Assembly: GCA_029932605.1 (NCBI GenBank)
Contig: JAOZPT010000007.1
Span: forward strand, 355 to 58,147
DNA length: 57,793 bases
Direction: 5' to 3'
Source of the DNA: Candidatus Zixiibacteriota bacterium
GTDB taxonomy: Bacteria; Zixibacteria; MSB-5A5; UBA10806; 4484-95
In this document: one piece after another, positions 14,925 through 37,784 of the stretch
Layout of the letters: each line of letters opens with the position of its first letter
How positions within the stretch are numbered: position 1 is the stretch's first letter
Notes under the pieces: generated by a model
Databases searched by the model: none
Told to the model about the DNA's origin: nothing
Seen by the model: only the letters and a program-made list of their open reading frames with translations
Program-made: the position numbers and the translations under genes

Positions 14925-17221
14925 AAATAAAAAAAACTAAGTTTAAAGAATCTGGATATGTTTCTGATAATAACCTGAAAACTTCACGAATCCCTGGATT
15001 TTATCGTTTGTCGGTTGAGCAACGGCTGGCTTTTTTAGCACGAAGTTTTAATCTTTCCGATGAACAGATTACGGAATTACGAAACGGTAATACGCTTAGA
15101 ATTGAAAATGCGGTAAACTTAGTTGAGAACGCAATCGGGATTTTTAGTTTACCTCTTGGGCTGGGGTTGAATTTTTTCATTGATGGTCGTGAACATCTCG
15201 TGCCTATGGCTATAGAGGAACCATCTATTATTGCGGCGGCTTCAAAAGCGGCATTGATGATTCGCAAAGGCGGGGGATTCACGACCAAGATAGATAAACC
15301 GATAATGATAGGCCAGATTCAGATTCTTGACCTGAACAATCCTGATTCTGCTGAAAAAGCCTTACATTTAAATAAAGATAAGATTATCAACCAAGCAAAC
15401 CTTGTCCATCCACGGATGGTTGCCCGCGGTGGAGGTGTATTCGATATCGAAACGCGGATCCTCGATGGAGCTGAAGGCATTGGCCCAATGTTGATAGTTC
15501 ATCTTCTTTTTGATGTTAGAGAGGCGATGGGAGCCAATATTGTCAACTCGGCCTGTGAGGTTGTCGGGCCAGTTATAGAGAAAATTACTGGAGGACGTGT
15601 AAATCTGCGGATTCTTTCGAATCTGGCTAACAAAAGGCTGGCTCGGGCTGAGTTTACCCTATCTTTTGAGCATCTTGCCACAAAGGAACTGAGCGGAGAA
15701 CAGGTAGCTAAACGTATTATCGAGACAAACCGCTTAGCTTTAATAGATCCATACAGAGCATCTACAAACAATAAAGGTATTTTCAATGGTATTTGTGCAG
15801 TGGCGCTAGCTCTTGGCCAGGATTGGAGAGCAATCGAAGCTGGTGGCCATGCCTATGCTGCCCGGAACGGTCAGTATCAAAGCCTGACGACTTACACCAT
15901 TAAAAATAACTCTTTGCACGGTAAAATTGAGTTACCGCTTCAAGTTGGTTGGGTAGGGGGAGTTATCAACTCCCATCCGGGGGTAAAAACATTGCGTATA
16001 ATTAGTGGCATACAGAATTCTCAGCAATTAGCGAGTGTACTTGCAGCAGTCGGTCTTGGACAGAATTTTGCCGCCTGCCATGCACTAAGCACGGTTGGTA
16101 TCCAAAAAGGACATATGGCCCTGCATGCCAGAAGTGTAGCTATAAGTGTTGGTGTCCCCGCTGATGAGGTTGAGAGAGTAGCTGATGAGATGATACGCCG
16201 TGGCGAGGTTAAAATTGCTGCGGCCGAAGAGATTTATCATGGCATGCAAAGATTACCGAAGCAAAAGGTAAGAAGGTTACCGATAGAGGCTTATGCTCCT
16301 GGTAAGGTGGTGTTATTCGGTGAGCATGCTACTGTATATAACTACCCTGGTATAACATCCGCTATTGATATTGGACTTAAGGTTCACATCAGCTATGACC
16401 CTGACGGTCCTCGTTTTATAAAACCTAAATATAGGCAGGTTTTTCCAATTCCTGGGTCGGATAGAGATGTTCGAGTTTTTTCAAAGGCTGTGGAATTAGC
16501 GCTGGTGATGTATGGTCTCCAAAAGGAACCAATTGCTATTGAAGTAGATTCCGACCTTGTTCCCGGTATGGGCTTGGGTTCATCTGCTGCTTTTTCTGTT
16601 GCATTATGTTCTGCTTTGAAACGCTACAAGCGTATTAACCTTCCACAACATTTCAATAACGGCTTATTTGAGGATGTTCAACGGCTTGAATCAATATTCC
16701 ATGGTCACCCCAGTGGAATGGATGCGGCAACCGTTTTATCTAAAGGTGTTCTCTGGTTTCGCAAGGGCCCACCTCGTGAAATTTTGCCTATACGGATGCC
16801 ATGTACGTTGGCCGGTTTTGTTTGTTTGGTTGAACCTGGAGCTTCTACTATTGAGATTGTTCAACGAGTAAGAAAATCCCGACAGCGCGACCCGGGTCTC
16901 ATTGATAGTATCCTTGATGAAATTGGAAGCCTTACCGTTGATGCAGGTATTGCTCTTGGTACAGGCGATAGTGTGGAATTGGGCCGCTTGATGTTTAAAA
17001 ACCATGAACTTTTAGCCCGTCTTGGTGTTTCGACACCTGCATTGGATCGGGCGGTAGAAAATCTGCTTGACCATGGTGTCCTGGGTTCGAAATTGACGGG
17101 AAGTGGAGGTGGCGGTGCTGTGATTGCTCTTGTCAAACCGGAGACACAATATGAGCTCATGCAGGAGTTGGAAAGTGAATTCGCTGAGATATTACCTTTC
17201 ACTTTGGGATCATCTGTGTGA
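14921..17221 (+). CDS. Class II HMG-CoA reductase fused to mevalonate kinase
   Basis: N-half has PMAIEEPS, EAMGAN, NNKGIFNG, IQKGHMALH. C-half has GHMP motifs PGKVVLFGEHA, GMGLGSSAA, HGHPSGMD, KLTGSGGGG. Confidence 0.92.
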   Translation: MKIKKTKFKESGYVSDNNLKTSRIPGFYRLSVEQRLAFLARSFNLSDEQITELRNGNTLRIENAVNLVENAIGIFSLPLGLGLNFFIDGREHLVPMAIEEPSIIAAASKAALMIRKGGGFTTKIDKPIMIGQIQILDLNNPDSAEKALHLNKDKIINQANLVHPRMVARGGGVFDIETRILDGAEGIGPMLIVHLLFDVREAMGANIVNSACEVVGPVIEKITGGRVNLRILSNLANKRLARAEFTLSFEHLATKELSGEQVAKRIIETNRLALIDPYRASTNNKGIFNGICAVALALGQDWRAIEAGGHAYAARNGQYQSLTTYTIKNNSLHGKIELPLQVGWVGGVINSHPGVKTLRIISGIQNSQQLASVLAAVGLGQNFAACHALSTVGIQKGHMALHARSVAISVGVPADEVERVADEMIRRGEVKIAAAEEIYHGMQRLPKQKVRRLPIEAYAPGKVVLFGEHATVYNYPGITSAIDIGLKVHISYDPDGPRFIKPKYRQVFPIPGSDRDVRVFSKAVELALVMYGLQKEPIAIEVDSDLVPGMGLGSSAAFSVALCSALKRYKRINLPQHFNNGLFEDVQRLESIFHGHPSGMDAATVLSKGVLWFRKGPPREILPIRMPCTLAGFVCLVEPGASTIEIVQRVRKSRQRDPGLIDSILDEIGSLTVDAGIALGTGDSVELGRLMFKNHELLARLGVSTPALDRAVENLLDHGVLGSKLTGSGGGGAVIALVKPETQYELMQELESEFAEILPFTLGSSV

Positions 17222-18189
17222 TAGAAAAGGTAACAGCCCGTGCATTTGCTAACATAGCGTTAGTAAAATATTGGGGAAAACAACCTGGTTTTAATAACGT
17301 TCCAGCAACCCCGTCAATCTCTCTTGCCCTTGAGTCACTTAAAACTATAACAGAAGTCGAGCGTATTAGAAGCGGAAAAGACAGTTTTTTTTTAAACGGA
17401 AGTATTGTCAGTAAGGTGATATATCGTAGATTGGTTGAGTATCTTGACTTCTGGCGCAACAATAAACTCATAGATGGTAAATTTATTATACGGTCACATA
17501 ATAATTTTCCCACAGGAGCTGGGCTTGCCTCCAGTTCATCAGGTTTTGCAGCTTTGACTGTAGCTTTAAGCGCTTTTTCAAGACGAAAAATCAGTAAACA
17601 CCAGCTCTCAAGGTTTGCTCGAAGAGGCAGTGGTTCGGCGGCGCGCTCGATTGTAGGGGGTCTGTCTGCTTTACCGATTGGAGCTGACCCTGCTGCAAGA
17701 TTGCTCTTGTCTGGTGATGAAGTGCCGTGGGGTATGGTAGTGATTGAAGTCGAAGGAAGAACAAAAAAGATAGGTTCACGAGAGGGAATGGAACTTTGTC
17801 GACGGTATAGCCCCTATTATCGCCAATGGATTACACTGGCTAATAAAGATTATAGGAAGATGCTGTCAGCTTTGCGGCGGTTGGATTTCTCAAGGGTTGG
17901 CGAGGTAGCCGAGGCGAATGCTTTAGCCATGCATGCCTGTATGTTTGCCAGCAGACCGGCTCTTGTTTACTGGAGTCCCGCTACCATTGAAATTATTAAT
18001 TCTGTCTGGCAATGGCGTGTCGATGGACTGGAGACATATTTTACCATAGATGCCGGCTCCAATGTGGTTTTACTATGCAAGCAAGAGGATCTAAAAGAAG
18101 CCATCAGGCGCGCCAGCCGGTTGAAGAATGTAAGGTCCGCTATTAAAAGCCTCCCCGGTGGTCCAGCGGAGATTATCGAGTTATCATGA
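17218..18189 (+). CDS. mvaD: Diphosphomevalonate decarboxylase
   Basis: NIALVKYWGK, GLASSSSGFAAL, GSGSAARS, FTIDAG. Confidence 0.93.
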   Translation: MIEKVTARAFANIALVKYWGKQPGFNNVPATPSISLALESLKTITEVERIRSGKDSFFLNGSIVSKVIYRRLVEYLDFWRNNKLIDGKFIIRSHNNFPTGAGLASSSSGFAALTVALSAFSRRKISKHQLSRFARRGSGSAARSIVGGLSALPIGADPAARLLLSGDEVPWGMVVIEVEGRTKKIGSREGMELCRRYSPYYRQWITLANKDYRKMLSALRRLDFSRVGEVAEANALAMHACMFASRPALVYWSPATIEIINSVWQWRVDGLETYFTIDAGSNVVLLCKQEDLKEAIRRASRLKNVRSAIKSLPGGPAEIIELS

Positions 18190-19124
18190 AGAAAGTCCGT
18201 ATTCCCGGTAAAGTGATGCTGTCGGGTGAATATGCGGTTTTATATGGAGGGACAGCAGTCTTAGTGCCGGTGCCACGTTTCCTGGAGATAACTGAAATCT
18301 CCAATGCACCAGAAAAACCGTATCCCAGAGTGGTGAATGTTGGTTTGGAATACAAAATTACTGAGACAACCGACTATGAGTCGAAACATGGTCTTCCCAA
18401 CCTTAAAATAGATAATCGTGAATTTTATTCAGAGGATACTGATGGTAAATTAACCAAACTTGGGCTTGGTTTATCAGCGGCTGAGGCGGTAGGAGTTGTG
18501 GTTATAAGATATAAACGTGCAGGTATAACTGTAGCCGAACACAAAACCGATATTACCAGATACGGAATGGATATCCATCGTAAAGCACAATCAGGATTTG
18601 GCAGTGGAGCGGATGTGGCTTTATGCGTTTATGGGGAACCAATTAGATTTTGTAATATTGACAACGATTTTCACATTGAATTAATAAGTGATGACAATCA
18701 GATCAATATCATGCCAATTACGCTTGCCTGGACAGGTCAACCAGCTGATACGAGAGGACTTGTCCAGCGTTTTCAAATCTGGGTTAAAAAAGGAGGAAAC
18801 AAAACCAAGAAGATCGTCTCTCATCTTGTCGAGATAAGCAACCAATTAGGGAAAGCCTGGTTTTTTGCCTCAATTCAGGATTTATTCATCTTGCTTGATG
18901 AATTTAATTCTATTATGGAGCATATAGCCAACAAGGCTCAAATACCGTATAAACTTCCCATACATGGAAAAATCGAAAACTGGGCAAGGAAACATGGAGG
19001 ATACGCTAAACCAACCGGCGCTGGTGGTGGGGATATGATATTGATTATAGGTGACTTACCGTTTCACGAATTGAAACAGGTGCTCATTCCCCTGAAATTG
19101 GGAGGCTCATTTTCTGAGGTTTGA
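18186..19124 (+). CDS. Phosphomevalonate kinase (GHMP family)
   Basis: PGKVMLSGEYAVL, KLGLGLSAA, GSGADVA, KPTGAGGGD; operon context. Confidence 0.8.
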   Translation: MKKVRIPGKVMLSGEYAVLYGGTAVLVPVPRFLEITEISNAPEKPYPRVVNVGLEYKITETTDYESKHGLPNLKIDNREFYSEDTDGKLTKLGLGLSAAEAVGVVVIRYKRAGITVAEHKTDITRYGMDIHRKAQSGFGSGADVALCVYGEPIRFCNIDNDFHIELISDDNQINIMPITLAWTGQPADTRGLVQRFQIWVKKGGNKTKKIVSHLVEISNQLGKAWFFASIQDLFILLDEFNSIMEHIANKAQIPYKLPIHGKIENWARKHGGYAKPTGAGGGDMILIIGDLPFHELKQVLIPLKLGGSFSEV

Positions 19125-19221: not shown

Positions 19222-20397
19222 TCATTCAGAAGTGTTAAGAGTTTTCTGGAAACGCTCCAATTGTTTGATGTAATACTCATCAGCGGGCGCTTCGGTGATA
19301 GCCAGCTTTATTAACCTTATAGCTTCTTGGGTATTTCCACGAGCGTTGCAGATTTCTGCTAAGGTGTCTAAAATCATCGCCTTTTGTTTTCCTGGCTCAG
19401 CCAGTTCTACACCCTGCCGCGCTAATCTTTCAGCTTCTTCAAGGTTGACTTTGTTTTCAAAACACCACCAGGCGAATGAGTTTAACTGTCCAGCATCTTT
19501 CTCCCAACCGTTCGGCATGGTTTCTCTTTTGTTTGCCACTGCCCGTGAGGTATCACCGGTAACATATAGGCTGTAATCGACCATTATGAGCTTGTGAGCT
19601 CTCTTGATATCCTCGTCCTGGCTATCAGCGGATGCGTCCAAGCCAGCCTTTAAATATTTCTCTATCTGGTCTGTTTGTTTCTTTTGTCTTCCAAGTCTGC
19701 TTAAGGTTCTTGCGACTGAAATAGTGCTCCATACGTCTTGGTTTTTAAAGTTCAACACTGCCTCGGCTGTCTGCAAAACTTCATCGAAGGTGAACATGTC
19801 TGTCCTAGCGCCATAGGCGGTGTTTTTGAAAATCTCGAAAGCGTAATCAACCAGATTTTCATCATTCAATTTTTGCGCCTGTTGGTAATATTCGATGGCC
19901 TTCTTGTAGTTACCTGTTGTGGAGTTGTAACGGCCTAAAGAAACAGCGTCTTTGACATTGGGATTTGATTGAAAGCGGATTATTTTTTCCTCGATAGTAG
20001 CCAGGTTTGACATCGCCTGATTCAGGGTTTTTATAAAATCCTCTTTTTCAAATCCTGCCCAGGCATCAATTGCTTTCCCCTCACTATTTGTTAAAATAAA
20101 AGTCGGATAAGCATGTACTTTATATTGTTTAGTAAGTTCGATACCCTCTCCTTTTTCACAGTTGATCCGGAAAAATGTGACCTGATTTAAAGCTTTTTTG
20201 ATGTCTTCATCTGATTTCACTACCCGAGCGAAATTCTTGCATGTGTTTCACCAGTCAACGAAGAAATCAATAAGCAGGGGTTTATCCTGCTGGCCTGATA
20301 TGGTTTTTGCTTGGTCAAATGTTCGGGGATTTTCCGCATTTGCCATTCCCACAAAGCCAGCCATTAATATAAAAATGAAAATAACCATTCTTTTCAT
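19222..20397 (-). CDS. Secreted thioredoxin-like selenoprotein (UxxC) with C-terminal TPR-like repeats, 391 aa
   Basis: ATG at 20397 after an AAGGA RBS gives MKRMVIFIFILMAGFVGMANA...KPLLIDFFVDW-TGA-NTCK, in frame with the 332-aa ORF. The TGA at 20248-20250 (codon 50) sits at the nucleophilic Cys of WCxxC; the cis-Pro motif YPT follows. Confidence 0.85.
20214..20234 (-). promoter_or_regulatory. Bacterial SECIS-like hairpin
   Basis: AUUUCGCU-CGGGU-AGUGAAAU: 8-bp stem with one G-U pair, starting 13 nt after the UGA, with G at loop position 2. Confidence 0.7.
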
Positions 20398-20467
20398 GGT
20401 TTGTATCCTTTCAGTTGTTAGGTTCATCGGTCATCATATTTAATTTCATGAAATTATAAATAATTCA

Positions 20468-21961
20468 TCATCTATTTTTACCTTTTTCTAAAACTTCCTT
20501 CATTTGTTGTAAATTATTTGTAATATACCACCAGCCGTTTTTGAAAGCGGCGTAGTCAGGTCCACCCATAGCGGAACCATAGCGCACTGAGTTGGCATAG
20601 AAAAGCCATTGTTTGATCCATTTTTGCTCAATAGTTTCATCGAAAGGATTTGATGGATCGGCCAGCTTCTCATCCCAGGCTTTCTGTAGAAGCTGTGTGG
20701 TAGTCAACGTCATTTGGTCTGTTTCATTGTTTGTCGAGTCGAGTTTGGCAAAATGACGCTCTGCCCAGTCCGTGCTGTGGCAGAGTTTACATACACTTGT
20801 CATAAGGTTTTTGCGTTTGGCCTGTTCATGTTTATCGATTAAGTATTCCTCGGCAAGCTCACCGTTAAATGTGGTGGGCAGATTTAAACCATCTTTGTTT
20901 TTGATTATAAATGTCATGCCGTTTTTTGGTTGGGGATGGGAATATATTGCTCCAAGCAACCTCACCCATAACCTTGCTCCGAAATCGTGTGTCCTTGGTA
21001 CCTTGATTTCGCCATCGGAATTAACCAACAGGCTGTTATGGCAGGTTGCACAGGTAGGGGCCTTGAAATCCTTTCCAACTGTCCAGGGGATATTATCCCA
21101 GTTCCATTCATACTGCTTTGATTGGAAAATATTTCCGTGTTTGCTTTCCCTGTAAACGTCCCAGGCGGGCACATCCGGCTGGAGGTGGCATTGCGAGCAG
21201 GTGAATGGTTTCCTGGCAATCTCGATCGAAAAGCTATGTCTTGGATGACAGGCTGTGCATGCCCCCAATGAGCCATCAGGATTAACACGTCCTACACCTT
21301 GGTTTGGCCAGTTGGCAAGCTCGGGAATTTCAATATCTCCAAGGTCGGTAGAGATTTGCTTTTTTCCGATTACTGTAACGTTGGTACCATGACAGGCGTA
21401 ACATGTTTCATTTTTGGAATTGTCGGAGGCGATATGTAAAAATTCATCGTTCTTAATTTCTTTAAGGTTAGTGATTGTCTCAACGAGACCGTGAAGGACA
21501 GGATTTTTTTGAAGGATACCCAGGGCATGAGCTTTTTTACTGGTGGAATATTGATCAACCTCAAGGTAGTGACAGGTTTTGCAATCGGCAGGTGAGACGA
21601 CTATATTGATATTGAAATCAAAATGTTCAAAATTATCTTTATGGGCAGATGGATTCAGGCTATGACATTCATAACAGCCCACAACAACCGATCGAAGGTT
21701 TTCCGGAATAGTCTGGCTTGAAACCCTCTTCTTAGTATTTATCTTTTCAAGTGCATCTTTGGGATTTATTTTTGCATGTCTGCTGGTTAGCCAATCTCCC
21801 ACTATTCCAGGGTTGATGGTTTCGTGGCAGGTTATGCATGATTGAGTTTCATCGCTTAAACGTACCTTTTCTTGAAGCGGCTCATCACCTGAAGCGGTTA
21901 CAGGTGTTATTAATGTGTTGATCGCGAATATAATAAGTAATATAAAACATAGATTTTTCAT
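20468..21961 (-). CDS. Octaheme cytochrome c, hydroxylamine oxidoreductase (HAO) family
   Basis: Signal peptide; eight CxxCH motifs (CITCH, CYECH, CKTCH, CYACH, CTACH, CSQCH, CATCH, CKLCH); HAO-like GVGRVNPDGS..C, ESKHG, APTCATCH. Confidence 0.88.
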   Translation of the reverse strand: MKNLCFILLIIFAINTLITPVTASGDEPLQEKVRLSDETQSCITCHETINPGIVGDWLTSRHAKINPKDALEKINTKKRVSSQTIPENLRSVVVGCYECHSLNPSAHKDNFEHFDFNINIVVSPADCKTCHYLEVDQYSTSKKAHALGILQKNPVLHGLVETITNLKEIKNDEFLHIASDNSKNETCYACHGTNVTVIGKKQISTDLGDIEIPELANWPNQGVGRVNPDGSLGACTACHPRHSFSIEIARKPFTCSQCHLQPDVPAWDVYRESKHGNIFQSKQYEWNWDNIPWTVGKDFKAPTCATCHNSLLVNSDGEIKVPRTHDFGARLWVRLLGAIYSHPQPKNGMTFIIKNKDGLNLPTTFNGELAEEYLIDKHEQAKRKNLMTSVCKLCHSTDWAERHFAKLDSTNNETDQMTLTTTQLLQKAWDEKLADPSNPFDETIEQKWIKQWLFYANSVRYGSAMGGPDYAAFKNGWWYITNNLQQMKEVLEKGKNR

Positions 21962-22355: not shown

Positions 22356-22886
22356 TCATGACCGCTTTTCTTTTTTTATTAAGGAATGATGCTTTAAAAA
22401 CTCACATCCCTTTGGTGTTATCTCATAATAGGTATGGTTTCTGTGTTTTATCCACTTGTTTTTGACGATATTTTTTCGATATCGAATAATGCGCGGTTGT
22501 ATACGTTTCAACAATTGCAATTCTTTAAGTTTCCTATGCCTTTCAAACACTGTTTTTTTTGGAAGTGTTAATATTCTAGCCACAACCAAGGAATAGTCCA
22601 CTCCCATAACCTGGTGATGCTTTAATATCATAAAATCGATGTCATCTAATTTGTTATATTCGAGTTCATCAAATTGGTTTTGATCTGTATCGATTTTTAT
22701 TATCTCATCCCAGGCAAGATTAAATAGTCTATCGGTGTTGACTTTTGCAAGATTTTTACAGCCGGCTTTATGCACCGATATTATCGACGAATCAATTTTA
22801 AGAAAACCAACTATCTTGTCACCTAAAGCGGGATTACAACAGCCGGCTAAACGGTAGTTTTCCTTAAGATTATGTTTATCTACCAT
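22356..22886 (-). CDS. Fusion of RelA/SpoT-type zinc-finger (RIS/ZFD) domain and DUF2250-like winged helix
   Basis: N-terminal LAGCCNP..GDKIVGF....SVHKAGCKNL; C-terminal ILKH...VDYS..AR...HRNHTYYEITPKG. Confidence 0.7.
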   Translation of the reverse strand: MVDKHNLKENYRLAGCCNPALGDKIVGFLKIDSSIISVHKAGCKNLAKVNTDRLFNLAWDEIIKIDTDQNQFDELEYNKLDDIDFMILKHHQVMGVDYSLVVARILTLPKKTVFERHRKLKELQLLKRIQPRIIRYRKNIVKNKWIKHRNHTYYEITPKGCEFLKHHSLIKKEKRS

Positions 22887-35363: not shown

Positions 35364-35519
35364 AAAATTCCATATTTAAAGGGTAACACTAAGTTGCCCG
35401 TCTGCAGATGGTTAAGTTGGATTGTCAACTACCTAGCTAAGATGTAAATGTATAAAAACAAACACCTGGCAAGGTAGCAAATATTGTTTGGTAAACCTTA
35501 AAAATAACGATGGTGATAT

Positions 35520-37784
35520 ATGTTAGAAATAAAATTTAAAGAGTTTGGGAACAAAAGCAAAATTATAATAATAACCACTTTTTCTGCTTGTGCTATCGGT
35601 ATCATGCATTATTTCCATACGACAGTTGAAACCGGCACTGTTTTTACACACTTCTTTTATATACCCATTATTTTGGCATCTTTATGGTGGAAAGAAAAAG
35701 GTTTGGTGGTACCCTTATTTTTGGCAACAGTGTTGATACTAAGCCACAATTTCCTAAGAATAGACATTACAACTATCAATGATTATTTCAGAGCTATGAT
35801 GTTCATGATTGTCGCTCTTATAGTGATTGCATTAAGTAATCATATCGACAAGATGGAAGAGTATCTTAAAAAAACACTGAAGGATAACAAGAAGTTGTTT
35901 TCAACAACTCTCAATAGCATAGGTGATGGAGTAATCGCCACTGATACAGAGGGTTATGTAATACATATTAACCCTGTCGCCGAGTCCTTGACAGGATGGA
36001 AACAGAAGGAAACTGTTGGGAAATGTCTAAAAGATATCTTCAATGTTGTAAATGAACATACCGGTAAAAAGATCGAGTACCCTATTAATAGGGTGATTAA
36101 AAATGGTTTAACAGTAGGTTTAGAAAATCATACCATATTAATAGCTAAGGATGGAACAAAACGGCATATTGACAATAGCTGTGCTCCAATTAAAGACGAC
36201 AAAGGAAATATCGTTGGAACCGTTCTGGTTTTCCGTGACATAACCGAGCGCAAGCAACAGGAGAAGTCCCTGGCGGATGAGAAAGAACAGTTGGCCGTAA
36301 CATTGCGCTCGATAGGCGATGGCGTCATCACAACAGATACAAGAGGAAATGTAGTTTTATTTAACAAGGTTGCTGAAGAAATAACCGGTTGGCATGAGGA
36401 GGAAGCAAAAGGAAAACACATTAATACTGTTTTTAAGATAATAAATGAAACTACACGTAAGAATGTTGAAAATCCAATAGAAAAAGTCATGAGAAAAGGC
36501 ATGGTAATAGGGCTTGGCAATCATACAGTTTTGATATCCAGAGATGGTACGGAAAAGCTTATTGCCGACAGCGGTGCTCCCGTCCGCGATAAAAAGGGCA
36601 ATATTATCGGCGTGATTTTAGTGTTCAGAGATGTCACTAAGACCAGGCGCATGCAGGACTTCGCAGCCCGTGCCCAAAGGCTCGAAACAGCCGGCAGGAT
36701 TGCCGGCCAGATAGCCCATGATTTCAATAACCTCCTGGGTCCGCTCATAGCATACCCAGATTTCATAAAGGAAACGCTGCCAAAAGACCACCCAGCACTG
36801 GAATATATTGATGATATGGAGAAGTCCGCTGAACGGATATCTGAAATAAACCAACAGCTCCTTACCCTTGGCAGAAGAGGCCACTACAACCAGGAACCGA
36901 TGAATTTAAATGAAATAATAAACAAAGCGGTAAACCAGATGGAGCCAATCCCCAATACGCTGATAGTCAACCTAGATCTTAAAAAAGATCTGATGAATAT
37001 AATGGGTGGCCCTTCCCAAATCTTTAGAGTAATCTCAAATCTTCTGACCAACGCCCGGGAAGCAATGCAAGACATCGGCCAACTAACAATAAAAACCGAA
37101 AATTATTATGTGGATAAAATGTTTGGTAAATTCGGGCGTGTCCCCAAAGGTGAATATGTCAAACTCACCATCGCTGACACAGGTTGTGGTATCCCCGATA
37201 ACATCATACCAAAAATATTCGACCCATTTTTCACAACTAAAACCACAGACAAAGTGAGAGGCTCCGGGTTGGGTTTAAGTGTTATCCATGGTGTAGTCAA
37301 AGACCACAACGGTTATATCGATGTAGATACCACTATCGGCAAGGAAACATCCTTTTATCTATATTTTCCGATTACACGCGAAACCGTGGAAAAAATCGAA
37401 GATGACCGGATTGTTGGAGGCTCTGAAAAGATTCTCATTGTCGATGATGATCATGTCCAGAGAGAGGTCAGCCTTAAATTATTGGGAAAACTCGGCTATG
37501 AAGCTTTAGCAATTAACAGCGGAGAAAAGGCTCTAAGTATCATTAAAGATGACCCGCATGACTTAATAATTCTGGATATGATCATGCCCGGAGGAATTGA
37601 CGGGGCAGAGACTTACCGTAGGGTTCTGGAAATAAATCCCAACCAAAGAGCGATTATCGTATCCGGTTATACCGAAAGCGACCGGGTTAAAGAAGCGATC
37701 GATTTGGGGGCAGGCACTTTCATCCGAAAGCCGTTGACCCTTAAAACAATCGCTCATGCAGTAAGAAAAGAGCTTGATAGATAA
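35520..37784 (+). CDS. Membrane-bound hybrid histidine kinase (TM - PAS - PAS - HisKA - HATPase - REC)
   Basis: Two SIGDGVI PAS/PAC repeats; AHDFNNLL; NAREA, DTGCGI, FDPFFTTK, GLGLS; receiver VDDD..LDMIMP. Confidence 0.93.
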   Translation: MLEIKFKEFGNKSKIIIITTFSACAIGIMHYFHTTVETGTVFTHFFYIPIILASLWWKEKGLVVPLFLATVLILSHNFLRIDITTINDYFRAMMFMIVALIVIALSNHIDKMEEYLKKTLKDNKKLFSTTLNSIGDGVIATDTEGYVIHINPVAESLTGWKQKETVGKCLKDIFNVVNEHTGKKIEYPINRVIKNGLTVGLENHTILIAKDGTKRHIDNSCAPIKDDKGNIVGTVLVFRDITERKQQEKSLADEKEQLAVTLRSIGDGVITTDTRGNVVLFNKVAEEITGWHEEEAKGKHINTVFKIINETTRKNVENPIEKVMRKGMVIGLGNHTVLISRDGTEKLIADSGAPVRDKKGNIIGVILVFRDVTKTRRMQDFAARAQRLETAGRIAGQIAHDFNNLLGPLIAYPDFIKETLPKDHPALEYIDDMEKSAERISEINQQLLTLGRRGHYNQEPMNLNEIINKAVNQMEPIPNTLIVNLDLKKDLMNIMGGPSQIFRVISNLLTNAREAMQDIGQLTIKTENYYVDKMFGKFGRVPKGEYVKLTIADTGCGIPDNIIPKIFDPFFTTKTTDKVRGSGLGLSVIHGVVKDHNGYIDVDTTIGKETSFYLYFPITRETVEKIEDDRIVGGSEKILIVDDDHVQREVSLKLLGKLGYEALAINSGEKALSIIKDDPHDLIILDMIMPGGIDGAETYRRVLEINPNQRAIIVSGYTESDRVKEAIDLGAGTFIRKPLTLKTIAHAVRKELDR

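What the first reader, a model, noticed from the sequence alone, without database searches (positions are those of the whole stretch)
19222..20397. Hidden exported selenoprotein: thioredoxin UxxC-TPR with SECIS
Seen: the 332-aa ORF lacks its N-terminus. Reading through one TGA (20248-20250) adds 59 codons containing an RBS-preceded ATG, a signal peptide and KPLLIDFFVDW-U-NTC, so the TGA falls exactly on the catalytic Cys of thioredoxin WCxxC. An 8-bp hairpin with a CGGGU loop starts 13 nt downstream. Established: bacterial Sec insertion uses UGA plus an immediately downstream SECIS with a G early in the apical loop, and Sec typically replaces the attacking Cys. TGA is a normal stop in other genes of this window, so this is not a code reassignment. 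Inference: a periplasmic Sec-thioredoxin with a TPR client-binding arm that standard annotation would miss.
Basis: partly seen in the sequence, partly recalled or inferred. Interest (0 to 1): 0.9.

Follow-up and report, generated by a model that had tools for sequence, protein, structure and literature searches.

The report
Exported selenocysteine thioredoxin-TPR protein, mis-annotated
This gene encodes an exported thioredoxin-like redox protein that uses selenocysteine in place of its catalytic cysteine; it belongs to a widespread bacterial family that gene callers routinely cut short because the selenocysteine codon looks like a stop.

Summary
On the minus strand, ATG 20397 to TGA 19222 gives a 391-residue protein if TGA 20248-20250 is read as Sec: a signal peptide, a thioredoxin fold with W-U-N-T-C, then a TPR superhelix.

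The genome has selD (itself with an in-frame TGA), selA, selB and tRNA-Sec(UCA).

Comparison decides it. Among 103 distinct homologous stretches from Zixibacteria, Eisenbacteria, Krumholzibacteria, Gemmatimonadota, Acidobacteriota and Calditrichia, 75 carry TGA at exactly this codon, 25 Cys, 2 Ser and 1 Ala. The inner five pairs of the hairpin at +17..+37 are intact in 71 of 75 TGA forms and 1 of 25 Cys forms. Compensatory changes fall at synonymous third-codon positions.

An independent metagenome run has the same TGA. TGA ends 19 of 34 long frames in the window, so this is not a code change.

Of the 120 best database hits, 79 are N-terminally truncated gene calls. No NCBIfam model reaches its cut-off, and a 2026 catalogue of 119 prokaryotic selenoprotein families never mentions TPR.

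This is a new family of a well-known kind (thioredoxin-fold UxxC selenoproteins). No conserved gene neighbour was found, so the client is unknown and the direction of redox action is inferred.

The parts
19222..20397 (-). Complete selenoprotein gene: 391 codons plus the TGA stop, with Sec at codon 50
   Evidence: Translation with TGA=U. Full-length homologues align from residue 1 to about 390.
20406..20410 (-). Shine-Dalgarno-like AAGGA, 8 nt upstream of the ATG
   Evidence: Read from the sequence.
20335..20397 (-). Signal peptide, residues 1-21, ending in A-N-A
   Evidence: Read from the sequence. pLDDT is below 50 for residues 1-20. Homologues have either a similar leader or a lipobox-like L-x-x-C. 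No signal-peptide predictor was available.
20248..20250 (-). UGA read as selenocysteine (U50), the first residue of the U-x-x-C redox motif
   Evidence: Aligns with Cys of WCGPC in the Cys forms. TGA sits at the same codon in 75 of 103 distinct homologous stretches. Contigs of runs X3 and X4 bridge it with no differences.
20214..20234 (-). SECIS hairpin: 8-bp stem and 5-nt loop CGGGU, starting 13 nt after the UGA. The same bases encode F-A-R-V-V-K.
   Evidence: Fold. Covariation on 32 sequences: 84.8% of cells paired against 35-43% when slid, and 6 of 8 pairs with changes on both sides. The inner four pairs are paired in 75 of 75 Sec forms.
20008..20322 (-). Thioredoxin-fold domain, residues about 26-130. 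The cis-Pro P98 is invariant.
   Evidence: PF00085 at 51.4 bits against a cut-off of 23.5. Best solved-structure sequence hits are 2kuc and DsbD C-terminal domains. Foldseek match to 1vrs_D has TMt 0.69. P98 is present in 104 of 104 proteins.
19228..19995 (-). All-helical TPR superhelix, residues about 135-390, 14 helices. It holds the conserved motif N-x-F-A-W-W-C-F-E-N.
   Evidence: TPR_12, TPR_2 and TPR_14 are above their cut-offs. AF2 mean pLDDT is 92.6. Best Foldseek hits are consensus TPR superhelices and the OGT TPR domain.

Best explanation
This is a genuine bacterial selenoprotein gene.

Recoding. When the ribosome reaches UGA 20248-20250, SelB carrying Sec-tRNA(Sec) is recruited by the SECIS hairpin at +17..+37 and inserts selenocysteine. 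Translation then continues to the real stop at 19222. The hairpin lies inside the coding sequence, so it also fixes the peptide that follows the redox motif: F-A-R-(A/E)-(A/V) in Sec forms, against F-T-K-A-like sequences in Cys forms.

Product. The protein is exported through its N-terminal signal peptide. It consists of a thioredoxin-fold domain of the DsbD-gamma / Thioredoxin_7 type and a TPR superhelix of about 255 residues. The attacking residue of the W-U-N-T-C redox centre is Sec.

Inferred steps, not shown:
- It acts in the periplasm as a thiol-disulfide (selenylsulfide) oxidoreductase.
- Its TPR arm holds an unfolded or peptide client.
- It most likely works in the reducing direction, with electrons from the CcdA/DsbD-type membrane protein that the genome encodes.

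Family. It spans several candidate and FCB-related phyla and is mostly in the Sec form. It has switched between Sec and Cys several times.

The confidence given is for the claim that this is a real Sec-encoding gene for an exported Trx-TPR protein. The inferred functional steps are much less certain.
For: Sec machinery in the genome
- selD: 204 and 203 bits on two contig ends, with one in-frame TGA at C-A-G-U-A-S-K.
- selA: 458 bits. selB: 358 bits, adjacent to selA.
- tRNA-Sec: 70.7 bits, called tRNA-SeC with anticodon UCA by ARAGORN.

The TGA is conserved
- In 41 related genomes including the window's own, 32 of 44 examined loci carry TGA at the same codon.
- With 80 named loci added, 75 of 103 distinct stretches are TGA, 25 Cys, 2 Ser and 1 Ala. 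Two loci were dropped for missing the region.

The hairpin goes with the TGA
- The inner 5 bp are intact in 71 of 75 Sec forms, 1 of 25 Cys forms and 0 of 3 others.
- Mean energy of the hairpin is -8.71 kcal/mol in Sec forms and +1.06 in Cys forms.
- The inner four pairs are paired in 75 of 75 Sec forms, against 8-13 of 25 Cys forms.
- Pairs 21-33 (CG 72, UA 3) and 24-30 (CG 45, UA 26, UG 4) each link two third-codon positions. The Ala codon at 22-24 is GCC or GCU in 73 of 75 and ACC (Thr) in the other 2, never GCA or GCG.
- The count of structure pairs: 0 of 500 shuffles reach the observed pairing or covariation score.

Fit to the published bacterial SECIS model (PMC13188914, section 5 and Fig. 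2 legend, read as passages)
- Loop 5 nt (allowed 3-9). Stem 8 bp (allowed 4-16).
- G at loop position 2, followed by G.
- 21 nt between the UGA and the loop (allowed 16-37).

The sequence is real
- Contigs of runs X3 (a different study) and X4 bridge the TGA with no differences.
- The identical truncated ORF is in the database from 4 contigs.

The protein
- Thioredoxin and TPR Pfam matches are above their cut-offs.
- AF2 model: mean pLDDT 92.6, pTM 0.85.
- C53 is present in 103 of 104 proteins and cis-Pro P98 in 104 of 104.
- A CcdA/DsbD-type transmembrane homologue is in the genome, 59.2 bits.

Tree of 104 distinct proteins
- Both deep clades hold Sec forms with the hairpin at the same place.
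- At least 12 Sec/non-Sec changes are needed, 7 of them forced by starred branches.
Against: - The window's own hairpin is the weakest kind. At -5.8 kcal/mol it misses the -7.5 kcal/mol limit of the published model.
- Its loop CGGGU is unique among the 75 Sec forms; 66 of them have xGUGx.
- Alone, the local fold is not better than shuffles.
- No Rfam family matched the region.
- No selenium incorporation, protein or RNA data exist for this gene.
- The five relatives in which I found only Cys forms all keep selA, so Cys forms are not explained by loss of the Sec trait.
- Function: no neighbour is conserved across loci; the largest cluster covers 12 of 87 loci. The adjacent multihaem cytochrome gene is seen beside this gene only in this genome, among the 26 relatives' loci examined.
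- The direction of electron flow and the client are therefore not supported by any direct evidence.
Confidence: 0.92

Rival explanations
1. Nonsense mutation or pseudogene. A Cys codon mutated to TGA, the gene is dead, and the hairpin is a coincidence.
For: The window's hairpin alone is not beyond chance. Cys-form homologues exist.
Against: TGA is at the same codon in 75 of 103 distinct stretches across several phyla, with both flanks conserved at protein level. A covarying hairpin is specific to the TGA forms. The Sec machinery is complete.
Confidence: 0.01
2. Sequencing or assembly error at the TGA in this assembly.
For: The genome is a fragmented assembly of 101 contigs.
Against: Contigs from run X3 (another study) and X4 (another sample) bridge 20248-20250 with no differences. 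The identical truncated ORF was seen on 4 contigs. Relatives have the same TGA.
Confidence: 0.01
3. The annotated 332-aa ORF (GTG 20220) is the real product, a cytoplasmic TPR protein without a redox centre. The upstream 49 codons are a separate leader peptide.
For: Gene callers predict this form, here and in 79 of the 120 best database hits.
Against: The GTG lies inside the 3' arm of the hairpin and cuts the thioredoxin fold after its first strand and helix, so the fold would be incomplete. No AGGAGG-like sequence precedes the GTG, by my reading. The Cys forms are uninterrupted proteins of 380-430 aa with the same N-terminus.
Confidence: 0.02
4. UGA is read through by something other than Sec, such as near-cognate Trp or Cys or a suppressor, and the hairpin acts as a general read-through stimulator.
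For: No direct selenium data. One database entry (P0009) shows W at this position, probably through another translation table.
Against: The position is the attacking Cys of a CxxC centre, where Sec is the established substitute and Trp would kill the centre. The hairpin has the spacing and loop G of bacterial SECIS elements. tRNA-Sec, SelA, SelB and SelD are all present, and SelD itself needs Sec decoding.
Confidence: 0.03

Closest known systems
Thioredoxin-fold UxxC selenoproteins of bacteria: Sec-thioredoxin (PF00085) and the predicted 'thiol:disulfide interchange protein' (PF13098), as listed in Table 1 of PMC13188914
   Same: Sec replaces the N-terminal attacking Cys of the CxxC motif in a thioredoxin fold. 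The SECIS hairpin lies in the coding sequence just downstream. Cys-containing homologues exist. The protein matches PF00085 and PF13098 above their cut-offs.
   Different: About 390 residues, with a signal peptide and a C-terminal TPR superhelix of about 255 residues. The words TPR and tetratricopeptide do not occur in that review or in PMC9312934. No NCBIfam selenoprotein model reaches its cut-off.
C-terminal (gamma) domain of DsbD, and the Thioredoxin_7 family protein 2kuc (Bacteroides putative disulphide isomerase)
   Same: These are the best sequence matches among solved structures: 2kuc E = 4.1e-16 and DsbD gamma 2.1e-10. The NCBIfam DsbD model matches residues 21-127. Foldseek TMt to 1vrs_D is 0.69. 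Both are periplasmic thioredoxin folds.
   Different: The DsbD model scores 52 bits against a cut-off of 330, so this is not a DsbD. There is no membrane domain and no alpha domain. It is a soluble exported protein fused to TPR, with Sec instead of Cys.
CnoX / YbbN chaperedoxin of E. coli (thioredoxin domain + TPR domain). Its features are recalled from memory; no CnoX sequence was compared here.
   Same: Domain order: thioredoxin fold followed by TPR. JGI names some Cys-form homologues 'thioredoxin-like negative regulator of GroEL'. A few family members have Ser or Ala at the first position of the motif, like the SxxC of CnoX.
   Different: CnoX is cytoplasmic and, as recalled, lacks a complete CxxC. 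This protein has a signal peptide and a full UxxC centre. No CnoX structure is among the Foldseek rows shown. Membership was not tested directly.
Cytochrome c maturation pair CcmG (periplasmic thioredoxin) and CcmI/CycH (TPR apocytochrome chaperone). Recalled from memory.
   Same: The same combination of a periplasmic thioredoxin-fold reductant and a TPR client-binding module. In this genome the gene follows a multihaem cytochrome gene with 8 CxxCH motifs.
   Different: DsbE/CcmG models score far below their cut-offs: 18.2 against 123 and 15.8 against 359. The cytochrome neighbour is absent from the 26 relatives' loci examined and forms no conserved cluster among 87 loci.

Membership tests
Bacterial selenoprotein gene (SelB/SECIS-dependent UGA recoding) | In-frame UGA aligned with a conserved, functionally critical Cys of homologues | tested here: met
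   U50 aligns with the first Cys of WCGPC in the Cys forms.
Bacterial selenoprotein gene (SelB/SECIS-dependent UGA recoding) | UGA-containing orthologues in other organisms, with conservation on both sides of the UGA | tested here: met
   75 of 103 distinct stretches carry TGA at the same codon. The matches are full-length.
Bacterial selenoprotein gene (SelB/SECIS-dependent UGA recoding) | SECIS stem-loop downstream: 3-9 nt loop, 4-16 bp stem, G in the first two loop positions, 16-37 nt from the UGA to the loop (criteria from PMC13188914) | tested here: met
   5-nt loop CGGGU, 8 bp stem, G at loop position 2, 21 nt spacing. The hairpin is conserved and covaries.
Bacterial selenoprotein gene (SelB/SECIS-dependent UGA recoding) | SECIS minimum free energy of -7.5 kcal/mol or lower (same model) | tested here: not met
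   The window's hairpin is -5.8 kcal/mol. Across the 75 Sec forms the mean for the hairpin is -8.71, and 67 of 75 have a 40-nt MFE of -7.5 or lower. This is a search threshold of a prediction program, not a biochemical limit.
Bacterial selenoprotein gene (SelB/SECIS-dependent UGA recoding) | selA, selB, selC and selD in the same genome | tested here: met
   All are above their curated cut-offs, and tRNA-SeC has anticodon UCA.
Bacterial selenoprotein gene (SelB/SECIS-dependent UGA recoding) | Selenium actually incorporated at the UGA | not testable with these tools
   Needs 75Se labelling or mass spectrometry.
Thioredoxin fold (PF00085 / clan) | HMM match above the gathering score; CxxC-type motif at the start of helix 1; cis-Pro loop | tested here: met
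   51.4 bits against 23.5. The model places U-N-T-C (residues 50-53) at the start of helix 51-62. P98 is present in 104 of 104 proteins.
TPR repeat proteins | TPR HMM matches above cut-off and a helical-hairpin superhelix | tested here: met
   TPR_12 scores 36.8 against 30.1, TPR_2 31 against 27, TPR_14 31.1 against 23.5. Foldseek to consensus TPR superhelices gives E = 1.2e-06.
Named NCBIfam selenoprotein families (TsoB NF045694, VPGUxxT type 2 NF041383, Trx7/PDZ NF041199, PDO_seleno_TRX TIGR02187) | Score at or above the curated cut-off | tested here: not met
   33.7 against 805, 18.1 against 275, 16.7 against 300, and 14.5 against 185.
DsbD (NF001419) | Score at or above the cut-off; three-domain membrane protein | tested here: not met
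   52 bits against 330, and only the gamma-domain part of the model matches.
CnoX/YbbN chaperedoxin | Cytoplasmic; thioredoxin domain without a complete CxxC; TPR domain that docks on GroEL (recalled) | not tested
   No CnoX sequence or structure was compared directly. The signal peptide and the full UxxC motif argue against orthology.

The most novel reading that the evidence does not exclude
The family is a periplasmic 'seleno-chaperedoxin', an exported and selenium-dependent counterpart of CnoX. Its TPR groove holds unfolded envelope proteins, such as the cysteine-rich multihaem cytochromes of these sediment and vent bacteria. Its Sec centre reduces or reshuffles their cysteines. The nearly invariant Cys312 in the W-W-C-F-E-N motif could serve as an internal redox partner. 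Sec would be ancestral to the whole family, making this one of the most widespread selenoprotein families still missing from catalogues and annotation pipelines.
Probability: 0.2. Interest if true: 0.65.

Novelty: new member of a known kind. Interest (0 to 1): 0.5.

Why it matters
The gene is a clean, well-controlled example of a selenoprotein that automatic annotation truncates. The error recurs across at least six phylum-level lineages: 79 of the 120 best database hits are cut at the same place. A profile plus a SECIS rule for this family would correct many records and add a family with a distinct architecture (signal peptide, UxxC thioredoxin fold, TPR) to the prokaryotic selenoproteome.

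The family is also good material for studying Sec/Cys exchange:
- The tree needs at least 12 changes.
- Cys forms occur in genomes that keep the Sec machinery.
- One Cys form still carries the now useless hairpin.
- The hairpin visibly dictates the amino acids that follow the active site.

Biologically it points to selenium-dependent redox quality control in the cell envelope of uncultured bacteria. Metagenome runs labelled hydrothermal vent, marine sediment or sediment hold this gene. No function has been tested.

Tried and rejected
Operon or partner by neighbourhood. The upstream multihaem cytochrome (8 CxxCH) suggested a role in cytochrome maturation. It is absent beside the gene in the 26 relatives' loci examined. 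All-against-all clustering of 827 flanking ORFs from 87 loci gave no cluster covering more than 12 loci. I rejected it as evidence and keep it only as a speculative lead.

Rfam. No family reached significance in 19900-20500. The best hit had E = 0.52 and was an unrelated snoRNA model.

SelD's SECIS in the same genome. I looked for a shared loop type. Its likely hairpin has a different stem and loop, so this was uninformative.

Loss of the Sec trait as the cause of Cys forms. All 5 of 5 relatives in which I found only Cys forms keep selA above its cut-off. Rejected.

Expression. No RNA holder was listed among the 19 runs returned, so nothing can be said about transcription. In one search, run X5's contig ends at 20248 and run X6 has no cover beyond 20227. 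Neither tells anything about the TGA.

Other recoding candidates in the window. One further in-frame TGA has long open stretches on both sides (36521-36523, minus strand). It lies antisense to a 755-codon frame and is taken as chance.

Literature. Four full-text searches found no paper describing this architecture as a selenoprotein: selenoprotein + Zixibacteria; selenoprotein + thioredoxin + tetratricopeptide + SECIS + bacterial; prokaryotic selenoproteins, thioredoxin-like and new selenoprotein families; selenocysteine + thioredoxin + TPR + periplasmic + UGA (0 papers).
- PMC13188914: I read part 1 of 3 of section 7 and term passages.
- PMC9312934: term search only.
- Other listed papers: search listing only.
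- Supplementary tables of selenoproteome surveys were not available. They may list members of this family under a generic 'thioredoxin' heading.
Full report
**Observation**

The minus-strand ORF 19222..20220 (332 aa, GTG start) continues upstream in frame through a single TGA (20248-20250) to ATG 20397. That ATG is preceded by AAGGA 8 nt upstream. The read-through product has 391 residues:
- a leader, MKRMVIFIFILMAGFVGMANA|EN;
- ...KPLLIDFFVDW-U-NTC...;
- a thioredoxin-family match (PF00085, 51.4 bits against a cut-off of 23.5, residues 36-126);
- several TPR matches above their cut-offs.

Thirteen nucleotides after the UGA comes an 8-bp hairpin with loop CGGGU (20234-20214). TGA is the commonest stop of long frames in the window, 19 of 34, and the gene itself ends in TGA followed by TAA. 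A code change is therefore excluded.

By itself the hairpin is weak. It is -5.8 kcal/mol, and the local fold is no better than shuffles (z = 0.32).

**Sec machinery**

The window's genome (2.53 Mb, 101 contigs) encodes:
- selD, split over two contig ends and itself carrying an in-frame TGA at C-A-G-U-A-S-K;
- selA (458 bits);
- selB directly downstream of selA (358 bits);
- a tRNA-Sec (70.7 bits) that ARAGORN calls tRNA-SeC with anticodon UCA.

**Comparative evidence for the UGA**

A protein search returned 532 homologues with two length classes. Of the 120 best, 79 have 345 residues or fewer and begin just after the redox motif. The other 41 have 375 or more. By my reading, 40 of those 41 have W-C-x-x-C, and one reads W at the first position.

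I then searched 41 related genomes, including the window's own, with stops read through. All 41 had a match, and most full-length matches held exactly one TGA. Translating the loci placed that TGA at the same codon in 32 of 44 loci: W-U-x-x-C, or D/G-U-x-x-C in a second paralogue group.

A scan of genome contigs added 80 named loci from Zixibacteria, Eisenbacteria, Krumholzibacteria, Gemmatimonadota, Acidobacteriota (including Polarisedimenticola) and Calditrichia. A few bins were labelled Ignavibacteria or Fibrobacteraceae.

Over all loci there are 103 distinct 48-nt stretches starting at this codon: 75 TGA, 25 Cys, 2 Ser and 1 Ala. L068 and L126 were dropped because the region is missing.

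**Comparative evidence for the SECIS**

All Sec forms align without gaps from the UGA. On 32 sequences:
- the 8-bp helix (columns 17-24 with 30-37) has 84.8% of cells paired, against 35-43% when the partner is slid by 1-3 columns;
- 6 of 8 pairs show changes on both sides;
- 0 of 500 shuffles reach the observed pairing or covariation score.

On all 75 Sec forms the inner four pairs are paired in 75 of 75, against 8-13 of 25 in Cys forms.

Two of these pairs join third codon positions: 21-33 (CG 72, UA 3) and 24-30 (CG 45, UA 26, UG 4). The Ala codon at 22-24 is GCC or GCU in 73 of 75 and ACC (Thr) in the other 2, never GCA or GCG. The constraint therefore acts on the RNA, not only on the peptide.

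The inner five pairs are intact in 71 of 75 Sec forms, 1 of 25 Cys forms and 0 of 3 others. The four Sec exceptions keep the inner four pairs.

The single Cys form with the hairpin (L025 = L071) is the close sister of a Sec form, L024. It looks like a recent TGA-to-TGC change.

Loops are CGUGA 36, CGUGC 25, GGUGC 5, CGGGA 4, CGGGC 4 and CGGGU 1, the last being the window.

Measured against the published bacterial SECIS model (PMC13188914, passages), the window's element meets the loop size, stem length, loop G and 21-nt spacing. It misses the -7.5 kcal/mol energy limit.

The hairpin encodes F-A-R-(A/E)-(A/V)-x in Sec forms. Cys forms have F-T-K-A and other sequences there.

**The sequence is real**

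Contigs of run X3 (a different study) and run X4 (another sample) bridge 20248-20250 with no differences. X5 and X6 do not cover the codon.

**The protein**

The AlphaFold model is confident (mean pLDDT 92.6, pTM 0.85). Only residues 1-20 fall below 50, as expected for a signal peptide. It shows a thioredoxin fold at residues about 26-130, with U-N-T-C at the start of helix 51-62. Fourteen helices follow.

Foldseek finds consensus TPR superhelices and the OGT TPR domain for the C-terminal part, and DsbD gamma (1vrs_D, TMt 0.69) for the N-terminal part. No solved structure shares the whole architecture. By sequence, the nearest solved proteins are 2kuc and DsbD gamma domains.

Across 104 distinct family proteins:
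- P98 (cis-Pro) is invariant;
- C53 is present in 103;
- Cys312 in W-W-C-F-E-N is present in 102. However, 61 of these rows were fetched with a pattern that contains this motif, so that count is partly by construction. In alignment A1 the position is at least 90% conserved.

**Function**

No neighbour is conserved, so the role rests on architecture alone. I infer an exported selenylsulfide/thiol-disulfide oxidoreductase with a TPR client-binding arm.

The Cys forms mostly have the reductase-like motif CGPC, and the genome has a CcdA/DsbD-type membrane protein. This makes a reducing role somewhat more likely than an oxidising one, but nothing here tests it.

The adjacent multihaem cytochrome gene (20468-21961, 8 CxxCH) is a neighbour in this genome only.

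**Evolution**

A quick maximum-likelihood tree of 104 distinct proteins (3 rows left out for short coverage: L047, L068, L126) has two deep clades of 84 and 20 rows. Both hold Sec forms with the hairpin in the same place.

The Sec/non-Sec label needs at least 12 changes, 7 of them forced by starred branches. The root is not inferred, so 'Sec ancestral' is an inference from the shared hairpin. The five relatives in which I found only Cys forms all retain selA.

**Comparison with what is known**

Thioredoxin-fold UxxC proteins are the largest class of bacterial selenoproteins (PMC13188914, section 7 part 1). The kind is therefore known.

This architecture is not catalogued:
- the words TPR and tetratricopeptide do not occur in that review or in PMC9312934;
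- no NCBIfam model, including the named selenoprotein models, reaches its cut-off;
- four literature searches found nothing.

Members may still be counted under generic 'thioredoxin' headings in survey supplements, which I could not see.

**Verdict**

Noticed in passing
window 20468-21961 (-): A 497-aa multihaem cytochrome c with 8 CxxCH motifs (PF13447, 59.7 bits) lies 70 nt upstream on the same strand. None of the 26 relatives' loci examined has a multihaem (2 or more CxxCH) ORF beside the gene.
   Followed up: partly
G000:C97:33142-33651 and G000:C89:1-3826 (L001, L002, L006, L007): selD is itself a selenoprotein gene (in-frame TGA at C-A-G-U-A-S-K) and is split across two contig ends. selD, selA and selB appear to form one cluster on C89.
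   Followed up: partly
window 17218-19124 (+): Diphosphomevalonate decarboxylase (PF22700, PF18376) and an overlapping GHMP-kinase-like gene converge on the selenoprotein gene. They are mevalonate-pathway genes in a bacterium. A homologous GHMP-kinase-like ORF lies next to the orthologue in three same-family relatives (L024, L036, L042).
   Followed up: no
window 19462-19464 (-), residue C312 in the motif N-x-F-A-W-W-C-F-E-N: A nearly invariant Cys lies inside the TPR domain of an exported protein (102 of 104 family proteins, partly by construction of the search pattern). It could be structural or a second redox site.
   Followed up: partly
L025 = L071 (Cys form) against L024 = L070 (Sec form): Two close sister genomes differ by TGC against TGA at the active-site codon. 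The Cys form still carries the hairpin, which looks like a recent Sec-to-Cys conversion with a relic SECIS.
   Followed up: partly
L064 (W-A-P-T-C), L112 (W-S-Y-S-C), L148 (W-S-E-G-A): Three family members have Ala or Ser in place of Sec/Cys, and L148 has also lost the second Cys. These are probably redox-inactive or single-Cys forms, reminiscent of the SxxC of CnoX (recalled).
   Followed up: no
P0009 (database protein, 389 aa): A public gene call reads W at the Sec codon (F-T-V-W-W-S-Y-C). The matching locus L024 has TGA there, so the record was probably translated with a table in which TGA is Trp.
   Followed up: partly
window 36521-36523 (-): This is the only other in-frame TGA in the window with 45 or more open codons on each side. 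It lies antisense to a 755-codon frame (35517-37784, +) and is most likely chance.
   Followed up: partly
window 22356-22886 (-): A 176-aa ORF matches DUF2250, a family described as conserved in archaea (47.1 bits), in what is a bacterial genome.
   Followed up: no
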